Positions 340 to 56,291 of a DNA stretch of 64,000 nt are shown here, in pieces (position 1 is the first letter of the stretch; every line of letters begins with the position of its first letter). The notes under the pieces are model-generated. The model worked only from the letters and a program-made list of their open reading frames with translations. It was not told the origin of the DNA and ran no database searches. A program made the position numbers and the translations under genes. Origin of the DNA: Candidatus Poribacteria bacterium (GTDB lineage: Bacteria; Poribacteria; WGA-4E; WGA-3G). The stretch lies in contig OZ251518.1 of the NCBI GenBank assembly GCA_965242965.1, positions 2,368,001-2,432,000 of the forward strand, written 5' to 3'.

Positions 340-1056
340 TCACTTAAATTGAGTTAGCAACTTTCCTAGTTCGCGGAGAGAATTGTTCCGGCGTAAGGTT
401 TCCCGATCGATAACTACATATTCAGCTATGTCGGGGGCCATCGTTTCGCGATACCGCTGCCGCCTAAGGTTCCTCTGGGGCATGTTTGGATTGAGTCTCC
501 GTAGAATTTTCGCAGAAAACTCCACCAAATATTCCTTGGCACCTCTGCCGCCTATTTCCGTTTCAACGATCTTCTCCGTATTGCCACTCTGACGACTTGC
601 AATCCATCGTGCCAAAGTCCGGTCTGCCGAGACTGTATTCCGACAATTTTCCCGATACTGTGCGCGTTTGCGGGCGAAATAACAGAAAATCCCCAGACAA
701 TCAATTAGCAACCATGCTTCAAGTTCCTGAACGGCCTCCGCAAGGAAGACTCTGCCAGCAAAACGACGATTGTTGACAATTCTGGTAACCTGATTGATAA
801 GCGAATTTGGTTCTTGCCGTCGTTGATGTATGGACATTGGGCCATCGCGATCAATGACGAAGATAACACAGACATCCTCTCTGAGATGATTCTGAACTGC
901 CCTCGTCAGCGTATCCCTCTTCGGTATGTCACCTTTGCCAGAGGTTTGGATAGACAGATTCCCGAGATGCAAATGTGTCGCCAATTTACTTGCCAAACAT
1001 TCAACAACTTTAGCATCATAGTCTGATTCCAAAGTCCAGATTCTTATGCTTGGCAT
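340..1056 (-). CDS. DUF4276/RloB-like TOPRIM-type partner of an ABC ATPase
   Basis: N-terminal ESDYD, IFVIDRD and VQELEAWLL motifs; overlaps the ATPase stop codon. Confidence 0.6.
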   Translation of the reverse strand: MPSIRIWTLESDYDAKVVECLASKLATHLHLGNLSIQTSGKGDIPKRDTLTRAVQNHLREDVCVIFVIDRDGPMSIHQRRQEPNSLINQVTRIVNNRRFAGRVFLAEAVQELEAWLLIDCLGIFCYFARKRAQYRENCRNTVSADRTLARWIASRQSGNTEKIVETEIGGRGAKEYLVEFSAKILRRLNPNMPQRNLRRQRYRETMAPDIAEYVVIDRETLRRNNSLRELGKLLTQFK

Positions 1057-2255
1057 GCTAATTTCCCCATCAACTCTTTTAGAAGCGAACTGTGGAAAAT
1101 GGCACTGCCGATGCCGAAATCCACAATCCAGCCATCCAAAGAGGCTCGTTTGTGACGAATGTCCTCGAGATTGACAACTTCTGTGCCTCGTCCCGGCTGG
1201 TTACGTAGAAGCAAAACACCGAGCCAATCCGATAAACTCTCATCCCTAAAGGTATCTAGAAGCTGAGAACTATGGGTTGTGATAATCACCTGGGTGCGTT
1301 CGGCAATTTGCTCAAGCACCTGCGCGATATCCAACAGCGCGCCGGGGTGCAGATTCCGCTCCGGTTCCTCAATGGCGATGAGCGGCGGCAATTTCGGTTG
1401 GTTGAGCAAGACATAATACGCAACGAGACGCAGCGTTCCATCAGACGCGCTCGCCAAAGGTATAGGTCTTTCGTGCCCTTCCCAAAGACAGAGTTGGTTC
1501 TCTCCATCAATTTCACAAAGATCTATGCTGATATTCGTACTCGCCGCGAGGGAATCACTAACGTCGCAAAACCGCTCTCGTGCATTCTTATACCAGTACG
1601 AGAGTAACATAGATAATGTAGAACCATGAATATTAAGTTGTGGAAATTCGCGCAACTCGTCGGATTTATCCGACAAGGCTTTCCCGACTCTAAGAAACGG
1701 AGAGCTCATGAGCTCGTCATCGTCGCGCATGAGATTTGGTTGAAAGTCGTAAAAATTCCACCCCTTAATGAATTCTGTCAAGACATTTGTAGCGGGTTTG
1801 TCGCCGTAATCGCCGGCTGACCTCAAAGCGAGTTTATCGGACTTGTATCTTGTTTGGTTTTCGCCGTTTTCATCCCAAACATGACCTTGGCCGTTCTGAA
1901 TTGATATAACCTTTTCACCGTTAACCAATAATTCCTCGGTAGCAAAAGGACTATCAGTTTCCGTGTTAAGCACCAATTGGTACTCAGCAGGCGTTTTGTC
2001 CACTTCGGACTGCAATCGGAAAGTGATACGGCTCGCATCCCCTGCCCACAGAGAATTTTGGATTAATTCAACTGGGGGAGGTGCTTCAATACGCATCATC
2101 ATGTTAAAAAGGCTCAAAGCATTCAAAACATTCGACTTCCCACTCGCATTGGGACCGACCAGCACCGTCAACGGCTTTAGTGGAAGTTCCACATCACGCA
2201 AACTCAGGAAGTTCTTGATGTGAACCTTCTCTAAAAATACGTTGCCATCAAACAT
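1044..2255 (-). CDS. AAA_21/AbiEii-type ABC ATPase
   Basis: IKNFLSL, Walker A GPNASGKS, signature SDGTLRL, Walker B IEEPERNLHP, H-loop ITTHS. Confidence 0.85.
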   Translation of the reverse strand: MFDGNVFLEKVHIKNFLSLRDVELPLKPLTVLVGPNASGKSNVLNALSLFNMMMRIEAPPPVELIQNSLWAGDASRITFRLQSEVDKTPAEYQLVLNTETDSPFATEELLVNGEKVISIQNGQGHVWDENGENQTRYKSDKLALRSAGDYGDKPATNVLTEFIKGWNFYDFQPNLMRDDDELMSSPFLRVGKALSDKSDELREFPQLNIHGSTLSMLLSYWYKNARERFCDVSDSLAASTNISIDLCEIDGENQLCLWEGHERPIPLASASDGTLRLVAYYVLLNQPKLPPLIAIEEPERNLHPGALLDIAQVLEQIAERTQVIITTHSSQLLDTFRDESLSDWLGVLLLRNQPGRGTEVVNLEDIRHKRASLDGWIVDFGIGSAIFHSSLLKELMGKLACQA

Positions 2256-2285
2256 GGATGTTTACCTCTGATTATTTGTGTTAAA

Positions 2286-2385
2286 TCTTAAGACGCTAAC
2301 ATTTTAGCATAAATCCGATTGTTATGCAAAAGAATTTCGGTGCGAAGTGCAATTGCTCTATCAACGGATAGGGAGTTCGCAGACC
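2286..2385 (-). promoter_or_regulatory. ~100 bp direct repeat, copy 1, containing a sigma70 promoter for the ATPase operon
   Basis: Minus strand TTGCAT(2329-2324)-17 nt-TAAAAT(2306-2301) with extended -10 TG; nearly identical copy at 3184-3284. Confidence 0.7.
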
Positions 2386-2391
2386 TTGCTA

Positions 2392-2535
2392 TCAACATAG
2401 GAATTCATCTGAAAATCTCGTTGGGAGTTCGGAAATTGAAATGTTAAGCGACTCCTGGTTAAAAACTTGAAACAGCAACGGCAAACGCTGAATTTTGGCG
2501 AAGATCGAGAGCACGTCGGTATCTACAAAAACCAA
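2392..2535 (-). pseudogene. Truncated PIN-domain (DUF3368-like) toxin
   Basis: TTG-start LVFVDTDVLSIFAKIQRLPLLFQVF... directly after the UPF0175 gene; stops after 47 codons. Confidence 0.6.
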
Positions 2536-2537
2536 GG

Positions 2538-3020
2538 CTACTGTCCCTCCGTTCTTGCATTGGATTTGCGCAGACGTTTAATGAGCTCAACCCCTGCTTT
2601 CAATTCTTCTGCCGGACGCACTTCAACGATTTTCCAGAGGCCCCTTTCCGCGAAAACCTCGTCTAACTCAAACCGGTGGATGCCCGCAAGATCAGCGGCC
2701 CTTCCGAACGTCACCGCACCTTCTTGATAGAAAAGGATAGCGGCATCGAGTCGCGACGCATTGTCAAGAGACTGACGCAGCAGCTCGTGCTCCATTTCCG
2801 GTTCATTTTTAACAGCAGCGAGCACAGCCTCAAAAGCCTTTTTGACTTCGGCCGTTAGCGTATCCGGAACGGTTTTATCTGACAGCACGGGGGCACACTC
2901 GGGTTCGGATTCTGCGTGTTCTATCAGGGATTCACGCAGCCGCTTACGTTCCTCTTCAGACAGTTTTTGAATCAGCGGCAACAGTTTGTCAAGTGTTACC
3001 GGTTCAGAAATTTGAATCAT
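2538..3020 (-). CDS. UPF0175-family antitoxin-like HTH protein
   Basis: AAILFYQEGAVTFGRAADLAGIHRFELDEVFAERG motif. Confidence 0.75.
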   Translation of the reverse strand: MIQISEPVTLDKLLPLIQKLSEEERKRLRESLIEHAESEPECAPVLSDKTVPDTLTAEVKKAFEAVLAAVKNEPEMEHELLRQSLDNASRLDAAILFYQEGAVTFGRAADLAGIHRFELDEVFAERGLWKIVEVRPAEELKAGVELIKRLRKSNARTEGQ

Positions 3021-3309: not shown

Positions 3310-3372
3310 CTCAATATCCAATTCCGACACGTCAACTTCACCAGATATGAGTTTCGGAAGCAGGAATTCGCG
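3310..3372 (-). pseudogene. hsdS: C-terminal remnant of a type I R-M specificity subunit
   Basis: REFLLPKLISGEVDVSELDIE is the typical HsdS C-terminus; no upstream body is present. Confidence 0.6.
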
Positions 3373-3767
3373 GGGTTCACAGCACGCCATCCGTCGCACA
3401 GGCCGCCGCACGCGCCTTATCGCGATACCCGCTGTCCGCAAGGATGCACCGCACCCCGTTTTTCACGAGACAGGGGCACTGCGTGTCCAACGCCTTGCCT
3501 CGTTGACAGTCACCGGCAACACGTCAAATCTCAAAGACGAGCAGGGAGACACGGTATAGCACCGCTGTCTGCCGCGCCGGCGAGGTGAGTTCTGGGTGGC
3601 AAAAAAATCTGCTAGCAAAGAAAAAAGCAATGTGATATACTGATGCATGTCAGGAGACTTCATGGGGTGTCTCATAGAATGGATTTGTTCTTCATGCTAG
3701 GATACCCCATCTCCTGACATTTTACAACCATTTATGAAACACCCTCGATTAATTAGGTATTTGCAAC

Positions 3768-5693
3768 TTGATAAAAAACTCTTCAGACACATCAGCACGC
3801 ATCACGGGCCGCTCGCTCATCTTGGGCGTTTTGTTCATCCCTGTCAATGTCTATTGGATGACACTGGTTGAGGTGAAATACTACTCGCTTGACGGTTCGT
3901 GCCTGCCGCTTTTTATCCAACCGGTTTTTATCCTGTTCGTCTGTGTTGTCTTCAACTGCGTGCTGAAACGCCTCGCGCCGCGGGCGATGCTCCAGCAAGG
4001 CGAATTGTTGGGCATCTACATCATGGTAGCGATTTCGTGCACGTTCGCCGGGCACGATACGATGCAAAATATGTTCGGCAGCATCGCACACCCGTTTCGG
4101 TTTGCCACGGACGAGAACGAATGGCAGACGCTGTTTTTCCGTTACCTTCCGAGTTGGCTCACCGTCAGCGATGCGCAAAGTTTGCAAGGGTTTTATGAAG
4201 GCGAGGCTTCTTTCTATACACGGCATAACTTTTTGACATGGGTGAAACCGATCGCGTTCTGGGGACTCTTTTTCCTGATTATGATGTTCATGATGCTATG
4301 CATCAATACGCTTGTGCGGAAGCGGTGGACAGAACAAGAGAAACTGGCGTATCCGATTATCCAACTCCCGCTCGGGCTGGCGGAAAATGGCGGTATCACG
4401 CTGCTAAAAAATCGGATGATGTGGATAGGGTTCAGCATCGCGTTTGTGATTGGTGTGGTTAACGGGATTCACTATCTGTTTCCGCAGTTTCCGGAGATTC
4501 CGTATATCAAACGCACCGCTGTTTTCCAAAACATCTTCACCGACAGGCCGTGGAACGTGATTCGCGGCACCCGCATTTCGGTTTATCCATTTGCGGTAGG
4601 GTTAGCATTTTTTCTTCCCTTGGATCTTTCGTTTTCGTGCTGGTTCTTTTTCGTTGTGCGGTTGGCGGAATTTGTCATCGGCGCGGCACTCGGCACGCGG
4701 TATTTTCCATCGCTCAATGAACAAGCGTATGGCGCGTGGATTGCGCTGTTCGTGCTGGCAGTGTGGGTAACGCGCCGCCACTTGATAGAGGTAATGAAAA
4801 AGGCGTTCGGCTTCCGGTCTTCTTTAGACGATTCCGATGAACCGATGCCATATCGCGCCGCACTGCTCGGCATTGTCGGTTCCCTCATTGCACTCGGCAT
4901 TTTTTGCTCCATGGCCGGGATGGCGTTATGGGTGGCGGGGCTCTTCTTCGGTATTTATTTCCTACTTTCCTTCGCGATTACGCGGGTGCGCGCGGAGCTC
5001 GGGACCCCGCACGAAATCTACTACGTCAATCCGCACGACATGCTGGCTACCGTTGGCGGCACTCGGCAATTTGACACCAGTAGTCTCACGCTCATGTCGC
5101 TGTTTTACTGGTTCAATAGGGGGTATCGCAATCATCCGATGCCGAATCAAATTGAGGCATTTAAAATCGCCGAATCGACAGGAATGGGCAATCGGCGGCT
5201 GTGGGTAGCGATGCTGATTGCCATTATTGTCGGCATTCTCGCGACGTTCTGGGCGAATCTGGATGTCACCTTCCGGAACGGCGCGATTGCGAAGGCAGGC
5301 GGCTTCAAAGGCTGGGTAGGCCGTGAATCGTTCAGCCGACTCCAACGCTGGCTGCACAACCCCGCAGAACCAAACTGGACAGGGGTTGGGTTCATGGGGA
5401 TCGGCGGCTTGCTGACGTTCCTGATGATGTATATGCGGATGCATTTCCTGTGGTGGCCGTTTCATCCCGCCGGCTACGCGCTAGCGATTAGTTTTGCAAT
5501 GGACTATTTCTGGTTCGCGTTCTTCGTCGCCTGGTTCCTGAAACTCATGATTCTGCGCCACGGCGGACTGAAGTTGCATCGCCGCGTTGCACCCCTGTTT
5601 TTAGGGCTGATTTTGGGGGATTATGTCATCGGCAGTATATGGGCGATTATCGGACCGGTGTCCGGTTTGCGCACCTATAAGATTTTTATCTGA
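3768..5693 (+). CDS. DUF6785/DUF6784 multi-TM putative peptide transporter
   Basis: Many TM helices; W..QEKLAYPI.QLP, RVRAELG and WWPFHPAGY motifs; paralog at 24406-26382. Confidence 0.7.
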   Translation: MIKNSSDTSARITGRSLILGVLFIPVNVYWMTLVEVKYYSLDGSCLPLFIQPVFILFVCVVFNCVLKRLAPRAMLQQGELLGIYIMVAISCTFAGHDTMQNMFGSIAHPFRFATDENEWQTLFFRYLPSWLTVSDAQSLQGFYEGEASFYTRHNFLTWVKPIAFWGLFFLIMMFMMLCINTLVRKRWTEQEKLAYPIIQLPLGLAENGGITLLKNRMMWIGFSIAFVIGVVNGIHYLFPQFPEIPYIKRTAVFQNIFTDRPWNVIRGTRISVYPFAVGLAFFLPLDLSFSCWFFFVVRLAEFVIGAALGTRYFPSLNEQAYGAWIALFVLAVWVTRRHLIEVMKKAFGFRSSLDDSDEPMPYRAALLGIVGSLIALGIFCSMAGMALWVAGLFFGIYFLLSFAITRVRAELGTPHEIYYVNPHDMLATVGGTRQFDTSSLTLMSLFYWFNRGYRNHPMPNQIEAFKIAESTGMGNRRLWVAMLIAIIVGILATFWANLDVTFRNGAIAKAGGFKGWVGRESFSRLQRWLHNPAEPNWTGVGFMGIGGLLTFLMMYMRMHFLWWPFHPAGYALAISFAMDYFWFAFFVAWFLKLMILRHGGLKLHRRVAPLFLGLILGDYVIGSIWAIIGPVSGLRTYKIFI

Positions 5694-15918: not shown

Positions 15919-16304
15919 GTGGATTTCTCCGTTTGATATTGAGACCGGGAGGTCTCTCCTACTGATAACATTGAGACTTGAAGGTCTCGTCTATTCTTCC
16001 AATCCTAAAGACTTGAGCGAAAACCCACTTTTTTCGTAACGCGAGGGCCTGTCCCCCGCGCTACGGTAACACGAACCGTTTTTTTTCACCGTAGCGCGAG
16101 GGCCTGTCCCTCGCGATCTCCAGCGTCAAAAGGTGGTGTTTTAGATCCGACGGACCTGAAGAGACGTTTTTTCCATAGCACGAACGATGGCGCGGGAAAC
16201 CCGCTCGCCTGCGCGTGTGGCAGGCGAGGGCCCGCGCCCTACGAAAACCCCGGCGTTGCATCGAGACCGGGAGGTCTCTCCTACCGAAGCGCGGCGATCC
16301 CTGT

Positions 16305-19758: not shown

Positions 19759-19923
19759 ATTTGTATTCCTCCGAAATTCGCTCCGGGTAGGTGCGGTTTC
19801 AAACCGCGCCTACGGGGTTTCGTTTTGCGTCCGTTCTCTTTCGCTTACACTATAATAAATTGAAAAGGAAATCGTGTCAAGAAAAAAAGAGACGCGTCTG
19901 CTATAACTTGGCATAATTTTATT

Positions 19924-20253
19924 GAGGGTGTTTCATAACTCAAGAAACCGTCCGGTTACCGTAGCGCGGGGGCCTGTCCCCCGCGAGCGTTTCAAAAAAT
20001 AAATGCCGATTTACCGTAGCGCGAGGGCCTGTCCCTCGCGATCGTTACATGGCGAGGGACAAGCCCTCACCCTACAGTAAATCGGGGCGTTTTTTGTCGA
20101 CCCGTTCGGGAGCAGGCGCTCCCGAACTACGGTCTTTTACAAGGTCTAGGCATGGCGAGGGACAGGCCCTCGCCCTACGTGAAGGGGCGACGTTTTTTTA
20201 CCGTAGCGCGAGGCCTGTCCCCCGCGACGTTGAGCGAGTTATGAAACCCCCTC
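19924..20253. mobile_element. Composite MITE: 18 bp TIRs enclosing REP palindromes, 9 bp TSD
   Basis: Left GAGGGTGTTTCATAACTC, right GAGTTATGAAACCCCCTC; AATTTTATT duplicated at 19915-19923 and 20254-20262. Confidence 0.8.
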
Positions 20254-20352
20254 AATTTTATTAAACCTTTTTTTGCAAATTCACGTCAAACCAATAGTGC
20301 CTGTTATCGCAACATTTGCCGCCCGGCGCAATCGGCCGGAAAGGAACCCACA

Positions 20353-24004: not shown

Positions 24005-24405
24005 GCGCGCCTTCCCGATACACCGCCGTTTTTTCGTAGGGCGAGGGCCTGTCCCTCGCCATGCAACGATCGCAAGGAAACCCGCTCGGATGCGCGTGTG
24101 GCATCCGAGGGCCTCCGCACTACGATAACCCCTTCACCCCTGTAGGTCAAGATCGCCTGATCTTGACCCGTTTGTGATCAGGCGATCACAAACTACAGAA
24201 GTGGGCCCGATGCCTTCCGGTAGGTGAGACCTCCTGGTCTCGATGCAAGACTGGGGGACTGGAAACATTCTCTTCAGGTCCGTAGGACCTGAAACGCCAC
24301 CGCTTGCCGATGGACGATCGCGGGGGACAGGCCCCCGCGCTACGTGGATGGACAGGCTGCAGGTTCGCGGGGGACAGCCCCCGCGCTACGGGAATGGACA
24401 TAAAA

Positions 24406-26382
24406 TTAATGCCACACAATATAAGTCGGCATTTGCAAAACCAACCCAATAAGACTCCACACACATCCAAGCGTATAATCTCCCAAGATCAGCCCGAGGA
24501 AAAACGGCACCGCCTGCCGATAGAGTTTCACGCCGCCGATTTTCAGCACGATGGCTTTCGCCAGCCAACTGAGGAAAATCGGGAACCACAAGCCGCCCAT
24601 CCCCGTGCCGCTGACAAGCACGTAACCACCCGGGTGCAAGGGCCACCACAGAAACCGCATCTTCATCACCATCAGGAATATAGTAAAGAAGAAGCTGCTC
24701 CCGATAACGCCGAGTTCTGGCACACTCGTCTCGCGCGGGCTGACAAGCCACGTTTGAAGGCGGTTGAAAGTCTCCCATCCCATATAGACTATCCAGCCGC
24801 GCGCCTTGCTTCCCGCGCCCATATCGTAAAGCACATGCAGATACGCCCAAAACGTGATGAGGATGCCGAAGACAATCGCCAAAATCATCCCGATGAGCAG
24901 TTGCCGGTATCCGATGCGCGTTCGCTCAGCAAGCCGGAACGCCTCAAGTTCACTCGGTGTCGGATGCGCGCGGAAACAGCGGACAAACGGGTAGAGGAAC
25001 GTTAACCCCGTCAAATTCGCCGAGCCGAGCCTGCGCGTGCCTAATGCTAATACCATCGTCCTACCCGGGTCAACGAAGATGAGTTGATGCAGCGGCGGAC
25101 CGATTTCGGCGCGAATCCGCGTGATCCCGATAACTAGCGGAAAGTAGAAAAGGAAAAACAGCCCAATCGCCCAAAATGTCATCCCCATCTGATAACAGAA
25201 AAAGAAGAGGCACAGCAGGCCGCCGGTGAAGAGAAGGGCTGCGGTGCGGTAGCGCATGGGTTCGTTTTCGTCCGAGACCGGGTGATCGCGAGGGACAGGC
25301 CCTCGCGCTACGGTGTCGGGAAGTGATGGCTCGCGAGGGACAGGCCCTCGCGCTACGGATAGATTGAAAATCTTTCGCAAGATTCTGCCGTAATGCCGTC
25401 TGCCAATCCACAGCGGAATGCATCCGAACGCCATCCATGCGCCGGTCTGCTGTTCAAGATGATAGATATTTCGCGCGCCGAGCGCGTCGGTTAAAATCAA
25501 TTGGACGCGGCTGAGGAGCCAGAAGAACCAGCAGGAAAAGGAGAGATCGAGCGGCGTAAAAAACATTAACCCGATGCTGAACGGATAAAAGGAGATGCGG
25601 ATAGGCCCCATCGCGCTCCACGGTTTTGAACTGAATTGCCCGATGGTTTTGCCTTTGAGTGGCAAGGCGGGGATGTCTGGAAATAGGTAGTTTAAGCCGT
25701 TCAGTAATTCCGCGCCGCCTGCCAGCGCGAAGCCTAACCACATCCACGGCGAACTGAAAAAGCGTTTCGGATTGCTAGTGAGTGCTAACGGCAATTGCAC
25801 GATGGGATAGTTGAGCCGTTCGTTTTCTGTCCACTGCTTGCGGAGAAAAACCGTGACAGACAGCAGCGTCAGCCAAAGCGCGATGACAAAACCAGACCAG
25901 GCGAGGACCGGTGGTATCCACGCGTTGAGCGTCGCAGAACGGTAAAGTGTAGAATCGCCTTCATAGAACCCTGTTAAAATGCGAGGGTCCTTCACCGCAA
26001 TCCATGTCGGGATGTGATGTCCGAAGAGCGGAATCCATTCGTTTTCGGGGGAGGCGAACTGAAAGGCGTGCGCGAGAACGGGGATAAGATAGCCCATCAT
26101 CGTGTGCCCGCTAATCGTCGTCAGCATGACTACCATCACGTAGATGGTTTGCAAATCGGCTTGCGACATGGACATGCGCGGCAGAAAACGTGTCAATAGC
26201 AGATTAAGCAACACGAGAACAAGGAGCGTAAAAACGGCGTTGAAAAACAGCGAAGCGATCGTCAACTGCGTTGAGTGCCACACCTCTGTCCCCATCAAGC
26301 ACCAATAACTGTTAAAGGCGACGAGTGCCAACCCAATCAGTAAAATATGCGGTTTGACGCTGTTTCGGTTTCTGTTAGCCAT
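24406..26382 (-). CDS. DUF6785/DUF6784 multi-TM putative peptide transporter (paralog) carrying an in-frame REP insertion
   Basis: WTENERLNYPIVQLP, RIRAEIG and WWPLHPGGY motifs; VARGPVPR occurs twice in a loop. Confidence 0.7.
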   Translation of the reverse strand: MANRNRNSVKPHILLIGLALVAFNSYWCLMGTEVWHSTQLTIASLFFNAVFTLLVLVLLNLLLTRFLPRMSMSQADLQTIYVMVVMLTTISGHTMMGYLIPVLAHAFQFASPENEWIPLFGHHIPTWIAVKDPRILTGFYEGDSTLYRSATLNAWIPPVLAWSGFVIALWLTLLSVTVFLRKQWTENERLNYPIVQLPLALTSNPKRFFSSPWMWLGFALAGGAELLNGLNYLFPDIPALPLKGKTIGQFSSKPWSAMGPIRISFYPFSIGLMFFTPLDLSFSCWFFWLLSRVQLILTDALGARNIYHLEQQTGAWMAFGCIPLWIGRRHYGRILRKIFNLSVARGPVPREPSLPDTVARGPVPRDHPVSDENEPMRYRTAALLFTGGLLCLFFFCYQMGMTFWAIGLFFLFYFPLVIGITRIRAEIGPPLHQLIFVDPGRTMVLALGTRRLGSANLTGLTFLYPFVRCFRAHPTPSELEAFRLAERTRIGYRQLLIGMILAIVFGILITFWAYLHVLYDMGAGSKARGWIVYMGWETFNRLQTWLVSPRETSVPELGVIGSSFFFTIFLMVMKMRFLWWPLHPGGYVLVSGTGMGGLWFPIFLSWLAKAIVLKIGGVKLYRQAVPFFLGLILGDYTLGCVWSLIGLVLQMPTYIVWH

Positions 26383-26473: not shown

Positions 26474-26930
26474 GAAGGTGTTTCATAACTCCGTTATGGA
26501 TGCCTCTTTAGGTCCTTTAGGACCTGCATGTCTATAGAAAAACAGACATGCCACTGTTTTCAAGGTCCGCTAGGACCTTAATCCAGCGGCAGCGAGGGAA
26601 GCAGGCACATTAAGGTCCTACAGACCTTAGGTGCGCTGCGATGCAGGATGCTATAGACATTAAGGTCTTACAGACCTTATTGTTCTCGTAGCGCGGGGGC
26701 CTGTCCCCCGCGATCTCTCAACCTTTGCGGAAAACGCCCGCAACCCAGAGACCACGGATGTTTGCTGCTCAGACCGGTGCATGGCGAGGGACAGGCCCTC
26801 GCCCTACGGTGAAAGCGGCAATCAAGCTTGGCGAGGGACAGGTTTTCCCACCGCCCTACGTGAAGGGAGGCGTTTTTTTACCGTAGCGCGGTAGCCTACC
26901 ACCGCGACGTTGAGCGATTCCGAACCACAG
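26474..26930. mobile_element. Composite MITE copy with a degraded right TIR
   Basis: Left GAAGGTGTTTCATAACTC; flanks TGATTAATC and TGATTAATA; interior has GGWCC palindromes and REP-A. Confidence 0.6.
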
Positions 26931-27786: not shown

Positions 27787-28210
27787 GAAGGAGTTTCATA
27801 AATCTGTGTAGGAGAGACCTCCCGGTCTCGATGCAATAGGGCGGCGCGCCTACCGGGGCTGCGGTGACAGAAAGCCTCCTTCATCGTAGGGCGAGGGCCT
27901 GTCCCTCGCCATCGTCCTCTTCAGGTCCGTAGGACCTGAATGTCTATAGCAGCCCAAACGCAAAAGGCTCTAAGGTCCTTTAGGTCCTTAATAGGTTTTG
28001 CCAGGGCCGCGTGCTTTTTATTAAGGACCTAAAGGACCTTGACAACGTAACGACACGTGTTGCTATAGACATTAAGGACCTAAAGGACCTAAAACGCCCC
28101 CGCTTGACGATGACCAACGCGGGGGACAGGCCCCCGCGCTACGGGAAAATTGAGACCAGGAGGTCTCGCCTACCCGAAGAAATCGAGACCAGGAGGTCTC
28201 TCCTACAGGA
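27787..28210. repeat. REP/GGWCC repeat cluster starting with a MITE-like left TIR
   Basis: GAAGGAGTTTCATAA, then REP-B, REP-A and AAGGTCCTTTAGGTCC/GGACCTAAAGGACC palindromes. Confidence 0.7.
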
Positions 28211-28336
28211 ACATCGCTTGCAGCGAGTAACATCAAAAACAGAAAACTAAACGGTTTCTGTGCGCAGCGATATTCATGTTGATATTCTTTGTGTTTTCAT
28301 GCGATACTGTATTGAACGAAAAAAAGGAGGCAGCAG

Positions 28337-29074: not shown

Positions 29075-29833
29075 ATGGTTTCGCCAAAAGAGATTCAAGC
29101 GGCTTGTGATGACATCGTTCGCGAGTTCGCGCCGCTACAAATTATTCTCTTCGGCTCCTATGCGTATGGCGCGCCGATGGAGGATTCGGATGTCGATCTA
29201 CTCGTCGTGATGGCTATTCCGGAATCGGAGAGACGCGGAAAGGCTGTGGAGATTCGGCAGCGCATTCCGCGTCGATTCCCTATGGATTTGCTCGTCCGTT
29301 CACCGGCAGAGATAGCCTATCGCGTCTCGCACAACGACTGGTTTCTCCGAGAAATCCTTGAGAAGGGGACTGTCCTTTACGATTCGGGTGGTTTTTCCAA
29401 GGGCGCGTTGGAAACCGCTTGCGAGCTGCGCGATAAGAAGGCGGCCGACGTGATGAATCCGTTGACATTAGAGTATGTCGAAAAAGCGGAGGAGAATTAC
29501 GCCAATATCGACTGGCTTCAGCAGGCACCCACGCCGAGGCATAATTCGGTGTGTTTCAACGCGCAGCAATGTATTGAGAAGTATCTGAAGGCGTGGTTGC
29601 AGGAGGCGAACCTCCCTGTTCCGCGAACGCATGATCTGGTAGAATTACTTTATCTGATTGTGCCGTTGCGTCCTGCGTGGCGTGCGTGGGATGCGGATTT
29701 TTCAGCGTTTGTTAAACATGCGGTGGATTTCCTGTATCCGAGGGAATCAGCCACTGCTGCGGATGCGCGTCATGCCGCAAGAATTGCTGCTGAGGTTCGG
29801 CAAGCGGTTCGTGATGGGTTGGGGATTTCTTGA
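29075..29833 (+). CDS. Fused minimal nucleotidyltransferase (MNT) - HEPN protein
   Basis: ILFGSYAYG...DSDVDLLVV, then CFNAQQCIEKYLKA...RTHDL. Confidence 0.8.
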   Translation: MVSPKEIQAACDDIVREFAPLQIILFGSYAYGAPMEDSDVDLLVVMAIPESERRGKAVEIRQRIPRRFPMDLLVRSPAEIAYRVSHNDWFLREILEKGTVLYDSGGFSKGALETACELRDKKAADVMNPLTLEYVEKAEENYANIDWLQQAPTPRHNSVCFNAQQCIEKYLKAWLQEANLPVPRTHDLVELLYLIVPLRPAWRAWDADFSAFVKHAVDFLYPRESATAADARHAARIAAEVRQAVRDGLGIS

Positions 29834-34574: not shown

Positions 34575-36059
34575 ATGCAAAACGCCAAAGACGCGGGCGG
34601 CACGGTTCGCCTGAAACCCCCAGATGTCCAAATTTCTGTGCAGAATTTTGGGCCGATAACGCATGCGGACATCGATCTGCGTCCGCTGACGGTGTTTGTC
34701 GGGGAGAGCAATACCGGCAAGACTTACCTCGCCGCGCTGATTTATGCCCTGCATCAGCATTTTGAGGGATTTTCACGGTTCCCTCGGGCGTATCTGAATT
34801 TTGCTGACTTAGACTTTCGTTATCGCTATCCTTTGCGACATCACAATCCGGAAATGCAGTCCGAGTTAGACGAAGAGATGCGAGATATCCTTGAAAAGTT
34901 AAACGCGCCTGGGAGGCCGTTCAAGGTATCAGATTTACCACGGCAGTTAAGTGCTGTGTTGCAACGTAGCATTGAAGATGCTGAAAGTCTTGAAGACCAG
35001 GTTAAGCGATACTTCGATCTGGAGTCTGTCGCGGAACTAATCAGGTCTACGAGCGATTTCCCGCACAATGAAATGGCGATTACGTTGGAAGTTCGTGAGG
35101 ACAAGCAGACATGTTGGACCTGTAACATGCGTAACGGTAAGTATGGTACCGCGATAACGGGAGGTGTTGGCAAAAACCTGGTCCTTCTCTCCGCGCAAGA
35201 ATTAGCAGGTCAAGAAATACTAGATTTCGGAGAATTTGCGAGACTTCTGCCTGTTTCTAGGTGGGAAGCGGATGCGTACTATTTGCCTGCCGCGCGGAGC
35301 GGCATCATGCAAAGTCACCGCGTGATTGCGAGATCGCTTGTGAAGAGCGCAACTCGTGTCGGCGTAGACAGGTTTCGCGAGATACCGACGTTTTCGGGGA
35401 TGATAGCGGATTTCCTTGAGGAGATTATCGGCTACGAAGACCGGAATGGTGATTGGGACGAAATGACAAGCATCGCGAACCTGCTAGAGATGGAAGTGTT
35501 ACGGGGGAAGATTGAGGTTAAACATGCAGTGGCAGAGGGATATCCGGAATTCCTCTACCGTCCCAAGGATACAGCGCGCCCACTGCGTATGAGTCAATCG
35601 TCCTCAATGGTATCGGAACTTGCGCCGTTGGTGCTGTTTTTGCGCGGTATCGTTCGTCCGGGCGATTTGCTCATTATTGAAGAGCCTGAATCCCACTTGC
35701 ATCCCGGTGCACAAACCGCGATTGCCCTGACCCTTGCGCGTTTGGTTCGAGCAGGGGTGCGGGTGGTTGTGACGACACACAGTAGTTGGTTTCTCCAGCA
35801 AATTGCGAATCTCATTCGCGAAGGGGAAGTAAATAGGCTGGCAAACGGTATGCCAGCATCGGCGGACTGGTTCTGGAAAGAAGATGTTGGTGCATGGTGG
35901 TTCCACCGTGACAAACCAGTAACGGAAATTCCGTTTGACCTGATTGACGGGATAGAGCCGCGGGATTTCGGGGACGTTGCCGAAATACTCTACAATCGTT
36001 CGGTAACCCTCCAAGAGAAGCTCGTGAATAGGACAGGAGAACGACGTGAAATTGAATGA
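34575..36059 (+). CDS. AAA_15/AAA_21 ABC-type ATPase, cassette 1
   Basis: NFGPI, GESNTGKT, YLPAARSG, SSSMVSELAP, IEEPESHLHP and TTHS motifs. Confidence 0.85.
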   Translation: MQNAKDAGGTVRLKPPDVQISVQNFGPITHADIDLRPLTVFVGESNTGKTYLAALIYALHQHFEGFSRFPRAYLNFADLDFRYRYPLRHHNPEMQSELDEEMRDILEKLNAPGRPFKVSDLPRQLSAVLQRSIEDAESLEDQVKRYFDLESVAELIRSTSDFPHNEMAITLEVREDKQTCWTCNMRNGKYGTAITGGVGKNLVLLSAQELAGQEILDFGEFARLLPVSRWEADAYYLPAARSGIMQSHRVIARSLVKSATRVGVDRFREIPTFSGMIADFLEEIIGYEDRNGDWDEMTSIANLLEMEVLRGKIEVKHAVAEGYPEFLYRPKDTARPLRMSQSSSMVSELAPLVLFLRGIVRPGDLLIIEEPESHLHPGAQTAIALTLARLVRAGVRVVVTTHSSWFLQQIANLIREGEVNRLANGMPASADWFWKEDVGAWWFHRDKPVTEIPFDLIDGIEPRDFGDVAEILYNRSVTLQEKLVNRTGERREIE

Positions 36060-36609
36060 CGTTCTTTCGGAAATCCGAACACGAGTGGATAAAGACAGCC
36101 TGACAGACTCCTGCAGCGGTGAGGGATGTGACGTGGATATGACGGACATACCCGATGAGCGCGTGATAATCCTCGTGGAACATGAGTTTGAGTTGCGCGA
36201 AATGGAGGGTAGACGCTGCGACCGGCTCCTTTTCTTCACTGTTGACAACATCCTCTTCATCGTCCCAATTGAACTCAAAAGTGGGAACATTAGGGCATCA
36301 AGAGGAACCAGGCAGTTGCTTGGTGGTGTAAAACTCGCAAATCATTTAGTTCCAGAGGCGAACGATTTTGAAACCATTTGCCTCCCGGTATTGTTCAGTG
36401 GCAATGTCATTCATCCTGAACAGCACAAAAGGCTCAATCAACGTAGCGGAACTTTCCGAAACCAGTTTTTCAAGGTTAGAACAGCGCGATGCGGTAAGGA
36501 GCGGAGTTTAGCGGATGCTCTGTTCGGCGCGATCCCGAAAACCCCGCAGGAAGTGTTGGAAGAGCGCACGCGTATAAGGGATGTCGTATTGGGTGGACTT
36601 TCTAACTAA
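36046..36609 (+). CDS. Putative PD-(D/E)xK nuclease, cassette 1
   Basis: RCDRLLF...PIELKSG...QL pattern; overlaps the ATPase stop codon. Confidence 0.55.
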   Translation: MKLNDVLSEIRTRVDKDSLTDSCSGEGCDVDMTDIPDERVIILVEHEFELREMEGRRCDRLLFFTVDNILFIVPIELKSGNIRASRGTRQLLGGVKLANHLVPEANDFETICLPVLFSGNVIHPEQHKRLNQRSGTFRNQFFKVRTARCGKERSLADALFGAIPKTPQEVLEERTRIRDVVLGGLSN

Positions 36610-36653
36610 TCAAGGTTCCATTGTGGAATTGAGACGAAAACGGAGAGATTATC

Positions 36654-37853
36654 ATGCAAAACACCAAAAAAACAACGCCCCCGAATATCCACCTCGCGGT
36701 GAAGAATTTTGGGCCGATAGGGAGTGCGGACATCGCGCTGCGTCCACTGACGGTGTTTGTCGGGGAGAGCAATACCGGCAAGACTTACCTCGCCGCGCTG
36801 ATTTATGCCCTGCATCGCACCTTTCAGGTGCCAATGAAACATGGAGACATCGCAGGTGCAAAGTCTAACTTCGGGGATGCGGCGGCGTTTGAAGCCGAAC
36901 TCAAACGGTGTTTTGACATTGACGCTGTCTCGGCGTTAATCCGCGTGACTGACAAGGCTGCCTGCGATGAAATGCAGGTGAGACTCGCGGTCTGCGCGGA
37001 TAATCAGACTCGATGCGTCTTTCAGTTGCGCGCCACCAAACGCGGTATCGCTGTAGAGCACTCTATCGATCTGCCGCCGCGGTCAGAGTTGAAAGAGGCT
37101 GCGTCACTTAACGAACGGAGCCGTGCTTATTTCTTGCCAGCGGGCCGCCGTGGGCTGCTGCAGGCGCATGAGACAGGGGCCGCTGCTGTCAAGACAAACG
37201 GGTTTTCTACCGATTTCCTGCAGCAACTCATCGGTAACCACGAGATAGATAACGGGGGTTCTGCCAAACTGCGCGGCGTTGCCGACTTCCTAAGGGATGA
37301 GGTGCTGCGTGGGGAGATAGAAATGGAGCCGTCGGTGCCGGCAGGCTCTCCTGCATTTTTCTACCGTCCGCAGAAAACCTCGCGCGTGCTGCGGTTAAGT
37401 CACTCGTCATCGCAAGTCTCTGCACTTGCGCCGTTAGCGTTGTTTGTTCGGGCGGTGCTGCGTCCGGGGGATTTGCTCATTATTGAGGAGCCTGAGTCTC
37501 ACTTGCATCCAGGTGCACAAACCGCGATTGCCCTGACCCTGGCGCGTTTGGTTCGAGCGGGGGTGCGGGTGATTGTCACGACACATAGCGATTGGTTTCT
37601 CCAGCAACTCGGCAATCTCATTCTTGAGGGAGAATTAGAGAAACTGGGTGAACCTTACAGCCAGCACGGAGAGTGGTTGCAGCGTGAAGATATTGGCGCA
37701 TGGCTGTTCCAAGAACACGGGACGGTGGAAGAAATTCCGTTTGACATCGTTGGCGGCATAGAGCCTCTGGAATATGGTGTCATTGCCGAGGAACTCTACA
37801 ACCATACGGTGAACCTCCGTAGCCGATACAGAAATGCCACCGGTGAGGAATAG
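36654..37853 (+). CDS. AAA_15/AAA_21 ABC-type ATPase, cassette 2
   Basis: Same motifs as cassette 1, with a shorter central region. Confidence 0.85.
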   Translation: MQNTKKTTPPNIHLAVKNFGPIGSADIALRPLTVFVGESNTGKTYLAALIYALHRTFQVPMKHGDIAGAKSNFGDAAAFEAELKRCFDIDAVSALIRVTDKAACDEMQVRLAVCADNQTRCVFQLRATKRGIAVEHSIDLPPRSELKEAASLNERSRAYFLPAGRRGLLQAHETGAAAVKTNGFSTDFLQQLIGNHEIDNGGSAKLRGVADFLRDEVLRGEIEMEPSVPAGSPAFFYRPQKTSRVLRLSHSSSQVSALAPLALFVRAVLRPGDLLIIEEPESHLHPGAQTAIALTLARLVRAGVRVIVTTHSDWFLQQLGNLILEGELEKLGEPYSQHGEWLQREDIGAWLFQEHGTVEEIPFDIVGGIEPLEYGVIAEELYNHTVNLRSRYRNATGEE

Positions 37854-38548: not shown

Positions 38549-39072
38549 GAGGGTGTTTCATAAATCCGTTGGCGCGCCCTCCCGGTCTCGATGCAATAGG
38601 CAGAAAGCTCCTCCTTCATCGTAGGGCGAGGGCCTGTCCCTCCCCATCGTTCGCGCTACGGAAAAAACGTCTCTTCAGGTCCTTTAGGACCTGAATGTCT
38701 ATAGTCACGTGAGGCTGCGAAGAACGCTAAGGTCCTTTAGGTCCTTAATAGGTTTTGCCATGTCCGCGTGTGTTTTATTAAGGACCTAAAGGACCTTGAC
38801 GTGGGAGCGGCACGTGTTGCTATAGACATGTAGGTCCTAAAGGACCTAAGACGGCATCTTGACGATGGCCAACGCGGGGGACAGGCCCCCGCGCTACGGG
38901 AACATCAAGACCAGAGGGCTCGCCTACCGGATGCATCGAGACTGGTAGGAGGGACATCCTTGCCCCGATAGGCGCATCAACAAAACGCATCGAGACCAGG
39001 AGGTCTCTCCTACGGGAAAATCGCTCGCATCGAGACAGCGCGGGAGTGCCAACGGATTTAGGAAACCCCTTC
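38549..39072. mobile_element. Composite MITE with 19 bp TIRs and an 8 bp TSD
   Basis: GAGGGTGTTTCATAAATCC ... GGATTTAGGAAACCCCTTC; AGATAAGT at 38541-38548 and 39073-39080. Confidence 0.8.
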
Positions 39073-43559: not shown

Positions 43560-43566
43560 GCAGTTT

Positions 43567-43595
43567 ATTTTACAAAAAACTGCGAATTTTGTCAA
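43567..43595 (-). promoter_or_regulatory. sigma70 promoter giving a probably leaderless argE-like mRNA
   Basis: TTGACA-17 nt-TAAAAT, 7 nt from the ATG; no SD. Confidence 0.6.
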
Positions 43596-43669: not shown

Positions 43670-44048
43670 GAGTCCATAAATCGCTCAGCATCGCGGGGGA
43701 CAGGCCCCCGCGCTACGATGAAAAATGGGGAATTGTCGGTAGGAGAGACCTCCTGGTCTCGATGCTTCAGTCACTCGCAAACGAGAGCGATGCGCCTATC
43801 CTCTAGTGCAGGCGCAACGCCCCTGTAGGTCAAGATCGTCTGAAGCTCTGGCACATTTGCCAAGCGATCTTGACCCGTTCGGGAGCGGGCGCTCCCGAAC
43901 TACAGAAATGGGCTCAATGCCTTCCGGTAGGAGGGACATCCTTGTCCCGATACGCAGCACATTGAGACCAGGAGGGCACGCCTCCCCGAAGAAATCGAGA
44001 CCGGGAGGTCTCTCCTACCGGGAAGCCATCGAGATATGAAACACCCTC
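43670..44048. mobile_element. Composite MITE with a partly deleted left TIR
   Basis: Right TATGAAACACCCTC; flanks AATTATTGT and AATTATTTT; interior has REP families A, B, C, E and F. Confidence 0.65.
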
Positions 44049-48410: not shown

Positions 48411-48842
48411 GAGGGTGTTTCGTAAATCGCTCAGCGTCGCGGTGACAGGTCCCCGCGCTATTGCCGGTAGGAGAGACCTCCTGGTCTCGATCTTCCGTAG
48501 CGCGGGGGCCTGTCCCCCGCGTTGTCCATCGTCAAGCGGTGGTGTTTTAGGTCCTTTAGGTCCTACATGTCTATAGCAGCACGTGTCGTCCTGTTTTCAA
48601 GGTCCTTTAGGTCCTTAATAAAACACGCGCCGCATGGCAAAACCTATTAAGGACCTAAAGGACCTTAGAGTTCTTCGCGAGCACGCGTGCTATAGACATT
48701 AAGGTCCTACGGACCTAAGAACCGTTTTTTCATCGTCGTGCGGGGCAGAAATCGAGACCGGGAGGTCTCTCCTACCGGGGAAATGGAATCGCTCGGGGTA
48801 TCGCGAAACCATTTTGACAACAACGAGTTAGGAAACACTCTC
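48411..48842. mobile_element. Composite MITE
   Basis: GAGGGTGTTTCGTAAATC ... GAGTTAGGAAACACTCTC; flanks ACTTAAAT and AATTAAAT. Confidence 0.75.
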
Positions 48843-55581: not shown

Positions 55582-56291
55582 CGTAGGAGAGCCCTCCTGG
55601 TCTCGATGCGAGCGGTGTCCCGGTAGGAGAGCCCTCCTGGTCTCGATGCGTTTTGTTGCTGTGCTATCGGGACAAGGATGTCCCTCCTACCGGTCTCGAT
55701 GCGTTCGGCGGTTCCCGTAGGGCGAGGGCCTGTCCCTCGCCGTGCCAAAATTCTCCTTTCACCGTAGGGCGAGGGCCTGTCCCTCGCCATGCACAGGTCT
55801 GAGCAGCAAACATCCGAGGTCTATGAGCTGCAGGCGTTTTTCGCGGAGATCGGCAGATCGCGGGGGACAGGCCCCCGCGCTACGGTAAGAAATAAGAAAT
55901 CGTCCCCGTTCACCGTAGGGCGAGGGCCTGTCCCTCGCCGTGCCTAAGGTCCCTTAGGTCCTTAATATGATTTTTCACGTCTTGTCTCCCGCACATTAAG
56001 GTCCTAACGGACCTTGAAAAGTTTGGCAGACCGGGGTTTCTATAGACATGCAGGTCTTAAAAGACCTGAAGAGGCATCCATTGCAAAAAGCATGCTCGTT
56101 GCGCGGGAGATAATCTTGTAAATCGTGTAAATCCTGTAAATCCTGATTCAGACTATTAAGATTGCGGGGGAAACCCGCTCGGATGCGCGGATGGCATCCG
56201 AGGGCCCCCGCGCTACGAACTACGGACGTTTGAGGCATCGAGACCAGGAGGTCTCTCCTACCGGGAAGGCATCAAGATATGAAACCCCCTC
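55582..56291. repeat. Large mixed REP array ending in a MITE right TIR
   Basis: REP-A/B/C, GGWCC palindromes, AATCCTG tract; TATGAAACCCCCTC ends at 56291. Confidence 0.75.

What the first reader, a model, noticed from the sequence alone, without database searches (positions are those of the whole stretch)
19915..20262. Composite MITE: IS256/Mutator-like ends that package variable REP cargo
Seen: TIR GAGGGTGTTTCATAA with a perfect 9 bp TSD (AATTTTATT) here, a perfect 8 bp TSD at 38549-39072, and one-mismatch TSDs at 26474-26930, 43670-44048 and 48411-48842; single ends at about 3746, 27787 and 56291. Interiors (330-524 bp) differ and are mosaics of REP families and GGWCC palindromes. Known: 8-9 bp TSDs fit IS256/Mutator DDE elements, whereas REPs depend on HUH enzymes. 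Inference: a two-tier parasite in which a DDE-mobilised shell carries, or is colonised by, HUH-type repeats. I do not recognise this as a described element.
Basis: partly seen in the sequence, partly recalled or inferred. Interest (0 to 1): 0.75.

Follow-up and report, generated by a model that had tools for sequence, protein, structure and literature searches.

The report
REP-filled MITE of a poribacterial IS982-like element
This is a small non-coding jumping element in a sponge-symbiont (Poribacteria) genome that borrows the ends of a previously unannotated IS982-like insertion sequence while its inside is made of the host's ordinary REP palindromes, an unusual make-up for a known kind of element.

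Summary
The motif GAGGGTGTTTCATAA occurs 11 times against 1.2 expected. It bounds five units of 330-524 bp, and their 8-9 bp flanking duplications match 9/9, 8/9, 8/8, 8/9 and 7/8. Twenty mismatched-flank controls reach at most 7/9.

The IS256/Mutator assignment is wrong. The same ends enclose a 1,110-bp insertion sequence in a Candidatus Poribacteria chromosome (L039). Its intact relatives encode a 332-aa DDE transposase that is distantly IS982-like. The window's host is a poribacterium and holds a decayed relic of this IS at 3344-3746.

The units share only 17-31 bp with the IS, so they are type II MITEs. Their interiors are GTAG-headed REP palindromes at 9.8/kb, the same kinds that fill other intergenic clusters at 12.4/kb.

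Copies C, s2 and E share a collinear core, so the interior moved with the ends. REP-sized indels show later remodelling.

Still open: empty sites, a RAYT gene, and an intact IS in this genome. The verdict is a new member of a known kind, of moderate interest.

The parts
19915..19923 (.). Left target-site duplication of copy A (AATTTTATT)
   Evidence: Identical 9/9 to 20254-20262
19924..19942 (+). Left terminal inverted repeat of copy A (GAGGGTGTTTCATAACTC...)
   Evidence: Exact match to the 15-nt motif. 17/18 identical to the reverse complement of the right end. Same terminus as the IS in L039
19961..20228 (.). Interior of copy A. GTAG-headed REP hairpins at 19961-19985(+), 20016-20042(+), 20051-20075(-), 20104-20130(-) and 20152-20178(-), plus a degenerate unit near 20204-20228. 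The pair 20016-20075 is an inverted REP doublet (REPIN-like)
   Evidence: Hairpin scan and REP1 list. The same REP types occur outside the TIR units. No similarity to the IS interior
20235..20253 (-). Right terminal inverted repeat of copy A
   Evidence: 1 mismatch to the 15-nt motif. Pairs with the left TIR in the single-strand fold
20254..20262 (.). Right target-site duplication of copy A
26474..26930 (.). Copy B (457 bp). Left TIR intact, right TIR degenerate, TSD 8/9. Holds part of a GGWCC module and REP1 units. Its right ~110 bp are collinear with copy A's right end
27787..28227 (+). Copy s2. Collinear with copy C from the left TIR onward but lacking the last ~40 bp and the right TIR
   Evidence: Alignment A1, 81% mean column identity, differences are REP-sized indels
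38549..39072 (.). Copy C (524 bp), perfect 8-bp TSD AGATAAGT. Long imperfect TIRs, several REP families and a ~190-bp GGWCC module
43670..44048 (.). Copy D (379 bp). Left TIR has an internal deletion, TSD 8/9. No GGWCC module
48411..48842 (.). Copy E (432 bp), TSD 7/8. Carries the C-type core in the opposite orientation. Its right end keeps 31 bp of the IS left end
56160..56291 (-). Solo end s3: TIR plus a REP2 module collinear with copy D's right end. No partner TIR found
3344..3746 (-). Decayed, internally deleted and right-truncated relic of the autonomous IS. It has the left TIR, the 5' leader, transposase residues ~1-41 and ~180-244 (including ADSGY, which matches the DNGY motif), and stop codons
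   Evidence: blastn to the L039 IS, positions 1-129, 72% identity. tblastn with P0001/P0100, 39-52% identity, E 1e-8 to 2e-5. Alignment A3. Translations

Best explanation
Window 19924-20253 is one copy of a family of non-autonomous type II MITEs. The family belongs to a Poribacteria-specific, distantly IS982-like insertion sequence of about 1.11 kb. That IS has 20-bp TIRs and one 332-aa DDE transposase.

The transposase, supplied in trans, needs only the ~18-19 bp termini (inferred). It moves whatever lies between two such termini into an AT-rich, palindromic 8-bp target (consensus ANTTAANT), which is duplicated on insertion as 8 bp, sometimes 9.

What lies between the termini here is not IS DNA. 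It is a block of the host's own GTAG-headed REP/REPIN palindromes, plus in some copies a ~190-bp GGWCC-rich palindromic module. The same repeats fill most intergenic spacers of this genome.

The block was present before at least some transposition events, because it recurs collinearly at different loci. It has since been remodelled by REP-sized insertions and deletions and by exchange of halves between copies.

Shown: the TIRs, the TSDs, the shared termini with an IS that encodes a DDE transposase, the REP make-up, and the collinearity.

Inferred: trans-mobilisation, the order of events, and that RAYT-type enzymes or REP-REP recombination cause the remodelling.
For: (1) TIR over-representation: 11 vs 1.22 expected. 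TSDs of 9/9, 8/9, 8/8, 8/9 and 7/8 beat 20 mismatched-flank controls (max 7/9) and random positions (P of about 3e-4).

Eleven of the 57 are Candidatus Poribacteria, and 4 of those contigs end at the TIR.

(3) L039 1909-3018 is a 1,110-bp unit with 19/20-matching 20-bp TIRs around a transposase ORF. L019 1716-2398 is a 683-bp internal-deletion derivative of it.

(4) Intact relatives are 332 aa, with 1335 hits at E<=1e-3. Many sit on ~1.1-kb contigs. Both rows that name an organism say Candidatus Poribacteria.

(5) Transposase family:
- Pfam DDE_Tnp_1_3 scores 34-39 bits against a cutoff of 27.
- The best NCBIfam model is IS982.
- 11 of 15 plasmid tblastn matches lie under 'IS982 family transposase'.
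- D121, D213 and E269 are invariant in the alignment with one of those.

(6) The host is a poribacterium. All 8 CarA rows that name an organism are Candidatus Poribacteria. The window carries a relic of the IS.

(7) The MITEs match the IS over only 17-31 terminal bp.

(8) Interiors are REPs: 25 GTAG hairpins in 2,563 bp. The REP types are identical to those outside the units.

(9) Carriage:
- C and s2 are collinear over ~440 bp starting at the TIR.
- E shares ~300 bp with C.
- Non-REP segments are shared only among TIR units.
- The REP1 tail variant TTGxxCATCGTCAAG occurs in 3 of 44 REP1 units, all at the homologous place in C, s2 and E.

(10) The target consensus ANTTAANT comes from 26 flanks, with 88% AT against 47% for the window.

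(11) No Pfam family matches any ORF overlapping the units.
Against: - No intact IS lies in the window. The IS copies with both ends come from other Poribacteria species.
- The two IS-type copies with both ends (L039, L019) do not have matching flanks, by my reading of the flanks listed (about 4-5 of 8). L039's ORF is also frameshifted.
- None of the other 9 Poribacteria loci shows a REP-filled MITE. The composite may therefore be confined to the window's lineage, and the sample is small.
- Parts of the shared interior (REP1-linker-GGWCC hairpin) also occur outside TIR units at 16091-16170, 24270-24345 and 55945-56085. Some collinearity could therefore reflect an independently repeated composite.
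- No empty site was examined.
- B, D, s2 and s3 have damaged or missing ends, so much of the family is fossil.
- The NCBIfam IS982 score (49-56 bits) is far below its cutoff of 130.
Confidence: 0.8

Rival explanations
1. Colonisation only. The TIR shells inserted with a different or minimal interior. Each copy was later filled independently by REP/REPIN insertion through RAYT-type activity, so REPs never travel with the shell.
For: - REPs occupy almost every intergenic spacer, and 55 of 80 GTAG hairpins lie outside the TIR units.
- C and s2 differ by REP-sized indels of 19, 25 and 53 bp.
- A and D lack the GGWCC module that B, C, E and s2 carry.
- Pieces of the 'core' occur outside TIR units.
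Against: - Independent filling would not give ~440 bp of the same units, in the same order with the same non-REP spacers, starting at the TIR in both C and s2.
- It would not give the shared REP1 tail variant found only in C, s2 and E.
- It would not give the shared TIR-plus-REP end modules of A/B, D/E and D/s3.
Confidence: 0.12
2. One reading: the ends belong to an IS256/Mutator-like DDE element.
For: TSDs of 8-9 bp are compatible with IS256 (recalled family property, not tested here).
Against: - The only transposase found between these TIRs hits DDE_Tnp_1_3, DDE_Tnp_1 and DDE_Tnp_1_5 in Pfam and IS982, IS5, IS1182, IS4 and IS1634 in NCBIfam.
- No Mutator/IS256 model appears at E<=0.01.
- Plasmid relatives are annotated IS982 family.
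Confidence: 0.02
3. Not a mobile unit at all. The IS inserted repeatedly into or next to REP clusters (REPs are known IS targets) and decayed to solo ends that happen to face each other.
For: - REPs are documented insertion targets of several IS families (PMC3184786 and PMC3733652, passages seen).
- Solo ends and a relic exist in the window.
Against: - The flanks next to the ends are AT-rich ANTTAANT sites, not REPs.
- The direct repeats bracket the whole TIR-to-TIR unit in 5 of 5 pairs. Two independent insertions would not produce that.
Confidence: 0.04

Closest known systems
Type II MITEs (MITEs that share only their TIRs with an autonomous IS; Minnick 2024 review, PMC10969869, section 2.2, passage seen)
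   Same: Short TIRs identical to those of an IS, TSDs, no coding capacity, multiple copies, an intergenic location, and an interior unrelated to the IS.
   Different: The interior is a mosaic of a second class of repeats (GTAG REPs/REPINs) that is itself abundant genome-wide. Interiors vary between copies by whole repeat units.
IS982-family insertion sequences and their MITEs (e.g. ISCca4 / MITECca01 of Cardinium, PMC9769881, passages seen)
   Same: An IS of about 1 kb with a single DDE_Tnp_1_3 transposase ORF and terminal inverted repeats. The acidic triad aligns with an annotated IS982 transposase. A non-autonomous derivative shares the IRs.
   Different: Only 27-28% identity to annotated IS982 transposases over ~58% of the length. 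The NCBIfam IS982 score is well below its cutoff. The protein is ~45 aa longer (332 vs 287 aa) and is annotated only as 'hypothetical protein'. The Cardinium MITE retains sequence from its parent IS (passage seen), whereas these retain only the termini.
BrickBuilt MITE of Porphyromonas gingivalis (a MITE containing a minisatellite; PMC4596501, abstract seen)
   Same: A MITE whose interior is made of another kind of repeat. Copies differ in how much repeat they hold.
   Different: The BrickBuilt interior is a tandem 23-nt minisatellite specific to the element. Here the interior is dispersed-type REP palindromes that also live independently outside the element.
REP / BIME / REPIN clusters associated with RAYT (Y1 HUH) transposases (PMC2817692 Table 1 and PMC3733652, passages seen; PMC3116915 and PMC3333891, search listing only)
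   Same: The cargo units have a GTAG head followed by a GC-rich imperfect palindrome. They form inverted doublets and mosaic clusters, and they are almost exclusively extragenic.
   Different: Described REP clusters are not bounded by DDE-type TIRs and TSDs. No RAYT gene was found in this window.

Membership tests
MITE (type II) | Terminal inverted repeats | tested here: met
   Five facing pairs. Copy A's ends match 17/18.
MITE (type II) | Target-site duplications better than chance | tested here: met
   9/9, 8/9, 8/8, 8/9 and 7/8, against at most 7/9 in 20 mismatched controls.
MITE (type II) | No transposase or other coding capacity; small size | tested here: met
   330-524 bp. ORFs overlapping the units have no Pfam family.
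MITE (type II) | TIRs shared with an autonomous IS, interior unrelated to it | tested here: met
   The L039 IS has the same termini. The MITEs match it over 17-31 bp only.
MITE (type II) | Evidence of mobility (empty vs filled orthologous sites) | not testable with these tools
No orthologous locus from a close relative was available.
IS982 family (autonomous partner) | Transposase carries the DDE_Tnp_1_3 domain (PF13612) above Pfam's gathering score | tested here: met
   34.1-38.6 bits against a cutoff of 27 for P0001, P0012 and P0100. 37.3 bits for the L039 ORF.
IS982 family (autonomous partner) | Reaches NCBIfam equivalog NF033520 cutoff | tested here: not met
   49-56 bits against a cutoff of 130. 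IS982 is nevertheless the best-scoring IS family.
IS982 family (autonomous partner) | Acidic DDE triad alignable with an annotated family member | tested here: met
   D121, D213 (DNGY/DKGY) and E269 are invariant in alignment A4 with the Acinetobacter plasmid IS982-family transposase.
IS982 family (autonomous partner) | About 1 kb, single ORF, TIRs, short TSD (size and 3-9 bp TSD range recalled from ISfinder, not from a call) | tested here: met
   1,110 bp, one ORF, 20-bp TIRs. The 8-9 bp TSDs were seen on the MITE copies. The two IS-type copies themselves lack matching flanks.
IS256 / Mutator | Mutator-type transposase | tested here: not met
   No such Pfam or NCBIfam family appears among the hits at E<=0.01 for P0001, P0012 and P0100.
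REP/REPIN (cargo) | GTAG (or GTGG) head followed by a GC-rich imperfect palindrome, many copies, extragenic | tested here: met
   80 GTAG hairpins, at 0.17/kb in coding DNA against 5.3-12.4/kb in intergenic DNA. The architecture matches Table 1 of PMC2817692 (passage seen).
REP/REPIN (cargo) | A cognate RAYT (Y1 HUH transposase) gene flanked by the same REPs | tested here: inconclusive
   None among the 151 ORFs of >=90 aa in the 64-kb window. RAYTs are usually single-copy (PMC5581495, abstract in the search listing), so absence from one window says little.

The most novel reading that the evidence does not exclude
REP/REPIN repeats, normally dependent on a single-copy HUH (RAYT) enzyme, gain a second, RAYT-independent route of spread here. 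They ride inside DDE-mobilised MITE shells, which drop whole ready-made REP clusters into AT-rich promoter-proximal sites. In return, the REP hairpins and REP-REP recombination diversify the MITE and help fold its ends together. That would be a genuine two-layer interaction between two classes of non-autonomous elements rather than incidental co-location.
Probability: 0.15. Interest if true: 0.6.

Novelty: new member of a known kind. Interest (0 to 1): 0.35.

Why it matters
Three things follow.

1. It identifies an abundant insertion-sequence lineage of sponge-symbiont Poribacteria that current annotation calls 'hypothetical protein'. The same element breaks MAG contigs at its ends. It can now be masked, counted and used as a marker.

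2. It defines the lineage's termini and its palindromic 8-bp target, ANTTAANT.

3. It offers a natural case in which two kinds of non-autonomous DNA are physically nested: DDE-type MITEs and HUH-type REPs. With complete genomes, one could ask directly whether REP clusters can be seeded by MITE transposition. That bears on how REP/BIME clusters arise at new loci.

The mechanism itself, trans-mobilisation of a type II MITE, is ordinary.

Tried and rejected
- Rfam (gathering thresholds) and tRNA scans of the window found nothing, so the units are not known structured RNAs.
- A search for the relic's own transposase lineage, using the 44-aa open N-terminal stretch (P0241, lengths 'longer'), found no hit at E<=0.01. 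The tool calls this weak evidence. It leaves open whether the window's genome, or the 5.74-Mb contig with the 98%-identical CarA, holds an intact copy.
- The window does not overlap any fetched Poribacteria locus (megablast).
- I first recalled the Geobacter MITE Chunjie as REP-containing. The passages I saw (PMC3184786, PMC10969869) describe 178-235 bp A+T-rich elements with 21-bp TIRs and 9-bp DRs and do not mention REPs, so I dropped that comparison.
- IS256/Mutator was rejected on the transposase family.
- 'IS inserted into REP targets' was rejected because the flanks are AT-rich non-REP sites.
- Literature searches for Poribacteria together with IS982, MITE, REPIN or REP returned no paper containing Poribacteria. 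Searches for MITE+REP+BIME+mosaic and MITE+REP+RAYT returned no title or abstract describing a REP-filled MITE. These cover only the held open-access library, and I read passages, not whole papers.
- ISfinder could not be consulted.

Full report
**1. What is there**

The region 19915-20262 reads AATTTTATT | GAGGGTGTTTCATAACTC ... GAGTTATGAAACCCCCTC | AATTTTATT. The 15-nt terminus, allowing up to 3 mismatches, occurs 11 times in the 64-kb window. Shuffles give 1.22 on average, and 0 of 100 reach 11.

Ten of the eleven ends form five facing pairs once two badly damaged partner ends are counted (B right, D left). These are A 19924-20253, B 26474-26930, C 38549-39072, D 43670-44048 and E 48411-48842. 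Three further ends stand alone, at 3746, 27787 and 56291.

The flanking direct repeats score 9/9, 8/9, 8/8, 8/9 and 7/8. Pairing the left flank of one unit with the right flank of another (20 pairs) never exceeds 7/9 or 5/8. Random positions at the same spacings reach >=8/9 with a frequency of about 3e-4.

**2. Host and context**

The window is ordinary chromosomal DNA at 47-59% G+C. It carries housekeeping and accessory genes and no transposase, and none of the 151 ORFs of >=90 aa hits a Y1/HUH transposase family. Rfam and tRNA scans are empty.

CarA (61376-62569) has a 98%-identical relative on an unnamed 5.74-Mb contig. All 8 listed rows that name an organism say Candidatus Poribacteria, at 78-82% identity. 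The host is therefore a poribacterium, a sponge-associated lineage.

**3. The autonomous partner**

Eleven of the 57 are Candidatus Poribacteria MAGs or chromosomes. The rest are single hits scattered over unrelated taxa, as expected by chance for an 18-nt degenerate word in roughly 600 Gb (my estimate, not a tool result).

In four Poribacteria loci the contig ends at the terminus (L013, L017, L030, L032), which is the signature of an assembly-breaking repeat.

- **L039**, from a complete chromosome, has two termini 1,110 bp apart (1909-3018). They are 20-bp inverted repeats matching 19/20, and they enclose a 264-aa ORF.
- **That ORF is damaged.** The copy is frameshifted near its C-terminus and interrupted near its N-terminus.
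- **Intact relatives** are 331-334 aa, mostly 332. There are 1335 hits at E<=1e-3 among 2340 candidates, many of them on contigs of about 1.1 kb. Both rows that name an organism say 'hypothetical protein [Candidatus Poribacteria bacterium]'.
- **L019** 1716-2398 is a 683-bp internal-deletion derivative, joining IS positions 1-113 to 549-1110.
- **L002, L022, L029 and L037** carry IS right-end relics.

**4. Which IS family**

- The intact proteins reach Pfam DDE_Tnp_1_3 (PF13612) at 34-39 bits against a gathering score of 27. Weaker matches go to DDE_Tnp_1 and DDE_Tnp_1_5.
- In NCBIfam the best model is IS982 (NF033520) at 49-56 bits, far below its cutoff of 130. IS5, IS1182, IS4 and IS1634 trail behind it.
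- tblastn against plasmids gives 15 records. Eleven lie under 'IS982 family transposase', at 27-28% identity over 58% of the query.
- In an end-to-end alignment with one of these, D121, D213 (DNGY/DKGY) and E269 are invariant, as is an N-terminal ITxLFxxLDxF motif.
- No Mutator/IS256 model appears.

The partner is a distant IS982-like element, not IS256/Mutator. It fails one curated membership threshold, so I file it as 'IS982-like', possibly a new subgroup.

**5. The window's own trace of the IS**

The 'single end' at 3746 continues inward with about 130 bp that are 72% identical to the IS left end. Transposase remnants follow: residues 1-41 at 3663-3532 and 180-244 at 3541-3344. They are 39-52% identical (E 1e-8 to 2e-5), include ADSGY at the DNGY position, and carry stops. 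No right end is left. The IS family therefore lived in this lineage. Whether an intact copy survives in this genome is unknown (one search found nothing, which is weak evidence).

**6. Relation of the MITEs to the IS**

blastn of the IS against the window finds only the termini in A, C and E, at 17-19 bp, or 31 bp at E's right end. The units are therefore not deletion derivatives like L019. They share only their ends with the IS, which is the published definition of a type II MITE (PMC10969869, section 2.2, passage seen). At position 18 most MITE ends carry the C of the IS right end rather than the A of its left end (read from the sequences).

**7. What the interiors are**

The window is saturated with GTAG-headed GC-rich palindromes. 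Several families are present, for example:
- GTAGCGCGGGGGCCTGTCCCCCGCG and its GTAGGGCGAGGG... partner
- GTAGGAGAGACCTCCYGGTCTC
- GTAGGAGGGACATCCTTGTCCC
- a GTAGTTCGGGAGCG... type

They often occur as inverted doublets. This is the REP/REPIN architecture tabulated for RAYT-associated repeats (PMC2817692 Table 1 and PMC3733652, passages seen).

A simple GTAG-hairpin scan finds 80 units:

| Location | Hairpins | Length | Density |
|---|---|---|---|
| Six TIR units | 25 | 2,563 bp | 9.75/kb |
| Other intergenic DNA | 46 | 8,674 bp | 5.3/kb |
| of which nine non-TIR REP clusters | 39 | 3,135 bp | 12.4/kb |
| Coding DNA | 9 | 52,763 bp | 0.17/kb |

The interiors are therefore ordinary REP-cluster material and hold a minority of the window's REPs.

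Copy A folds as a single strand at -95.5 kcal/mol against -56.2 +/- 4.2 for shuffles (z = -9.3). The two TIRs close a set of REP hairpins.

**8. Carried or colonised?**

Evidence for carriage:
- C and s2 lie at different loci and align from the TIR inward over ~440 bp at 81% mean column identity.
- E carries ~300 bp of the same core, the GGWCC module plus REP1 plus REP2, in the opposite orientation.
- Non-REP stretches of this core are found only in TIR units within the window.
- The REP1 unit beside it has a tail (TTGxxCATCGTCAAG) seen in 3 of 44 REP1 units, exactly those in C, s2 and E.
- A/B share ~110 bp at one end, D/E ~85 bp, and D/s3 another module.

This is what transposition of a REP-containing unit, followed by exchange of halves, would give.

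Evidence for later turnover: C and s2 differ by 19-, 25- and 53-bp indels that are whole or partial REP units. The 53-bp indel is bracketed by a GCATCGAGAC direct repeat.

A caution: REP1-linker-GGWCC-hairpin arrangements also occur without TIRs, at 16091-16170, 24270-24345 and 55945-56085. The interior was probably drawn from a pre-existing composite repeat, and part of the collinearity may come from that.

**9. Target**

I took 26 flanks, 13 from the window and 13 from Poribacteria loci, with right flanks reverse-complemented. They give A(23/26) N T(19) T(21) A(22) A(20) N T(23) next to the terminus. This is a palindromic 8-bp ANTTAANT target, 88% A+T against 47% for the window. All five complete units are intergenic.

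Against the simple picture, the two IS-type copies with both ends (L039, L019) do not have matching flanks.

**10. What stays open**

- No empty-site comparison was possible.
- No RAYT was found.
- There is no intact IS from the window's own genome.
- No REP-filled MITE appeared in the 9 other Poribacteria loci with a single terminus.
- ISfinder was not available.

The literature checks cover only the open-access library and only the passages read. Within them I found no description of a MITE whose interior is made of REPs, and no paper linking Poribacteria with IS982, MITEs or REPINs.

**11. Verdict**

This is a real, TSD-bracketed, non-autonomous element family. The partner is IS982-like, not IS256/Mutator. 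Mechanistically it is an ordinary type II MITE whose cargo happens to be the host's REP clusters. 'Two-tier parasite' remains an interesting but unproven reading.

Noticed in passing
window 26510-26680, 27920-28095, 38672-38850, 48545-48720, 55945-56085, partial at 41360-41425; R-M genes at 49331-51713: A ~190-bp palindromic module carries 3-4 paired motifs AGGWCC-TWWA-GGWCCT spaced about 51 bp apart, plus TGTCTATAG / CTATAGACA arms. The paired motif occurs 16 times against 0.13 expected. The module falls into two subfamilies. GGWCC as a whole is depleted in the window (79 vs 114 +/- 8.5), and about half the sites sit in these modules. A DNA methylase plus TdeIII-type restriction enzyme pair lies next to copy E. 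The enzyme's GGNCC specificity is recalled, not tested. Whether the module is a protein-binding array, a separate MITE or related to the R-M system is unexplained.
   Followed up: partly
window 25274-25359, inside the DUF6785/DUF6784 gene 24406-26382(-): Two REP1 units (25287 and 25332, minus strand) lie inside an apparently intact 658-aa ORF. Its paralog at 3768-5693 is 641 aa, so this may be an in-frame REP insertion into a coding sequence.
   Followed up: no
window 3746/3768 and 26382/26474: Both DUF6785 paralogs have an IS or MITE end inserted at a GATTAAT site just upstream of their start codons (22 bp and 92 bp). This may reflect target preference for AT-rich promoter regions, or a shared history.
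   Followed up: no
window 61108-61419 and 62542-63274: There are tandem arrays of REP-containing units: about 57-bp units x5-6 directly upstream of and overlapping the annotated GTG start of carA, and about 150-bp units x5 between carA and carB. CarA homologues are ~380 aa and cover 94-96% of the 397-aa ORF, so the true start is probably downstream of the array.
   Followed up: partly
window 56191-58876: Four adjacent ORFs (267, 201, 201 and 201 aa) have no Pfam family and are built from ~1.1-kb repeated DNA (56545-57656 vs 57773-58876). This is a tandemly duplicated gene of unknown function.
   Followed up: no
window 340-2255, 29075-29833, 34575-37853: Defence-like genes are scattered through the window: an AAA_21/AAA_15 ATPase next to a DUF4276 protein, a nucleotidyltransferase-HEPN fusion, and two paralogous AAA_15/AAA_21 ATPases that share repeated segments.
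   Followed up: no
L013, L017, L030, L032 (Poribacteria MAG contigs): These contigs end within 0-5 bp of the IS terminus, so this IS/MITE family is a recurrent cause of assembly breaks in Poribacteria MAGs. Its transposase is annotated only as 'hypothetical protein'.
   Followed up: partly
window 43670-43691 and 43914-44048: The listed start of the M20 peptidase ORF (42435-43691, minus) lies 22 bp inside copy D. A 185-aa ORF with no Pfam family (43914-44471, minus) runs from a REP cluster into D's right end. These are probably a mis-called start and a spurious ORF, not gene fusions.
   Followed up: no
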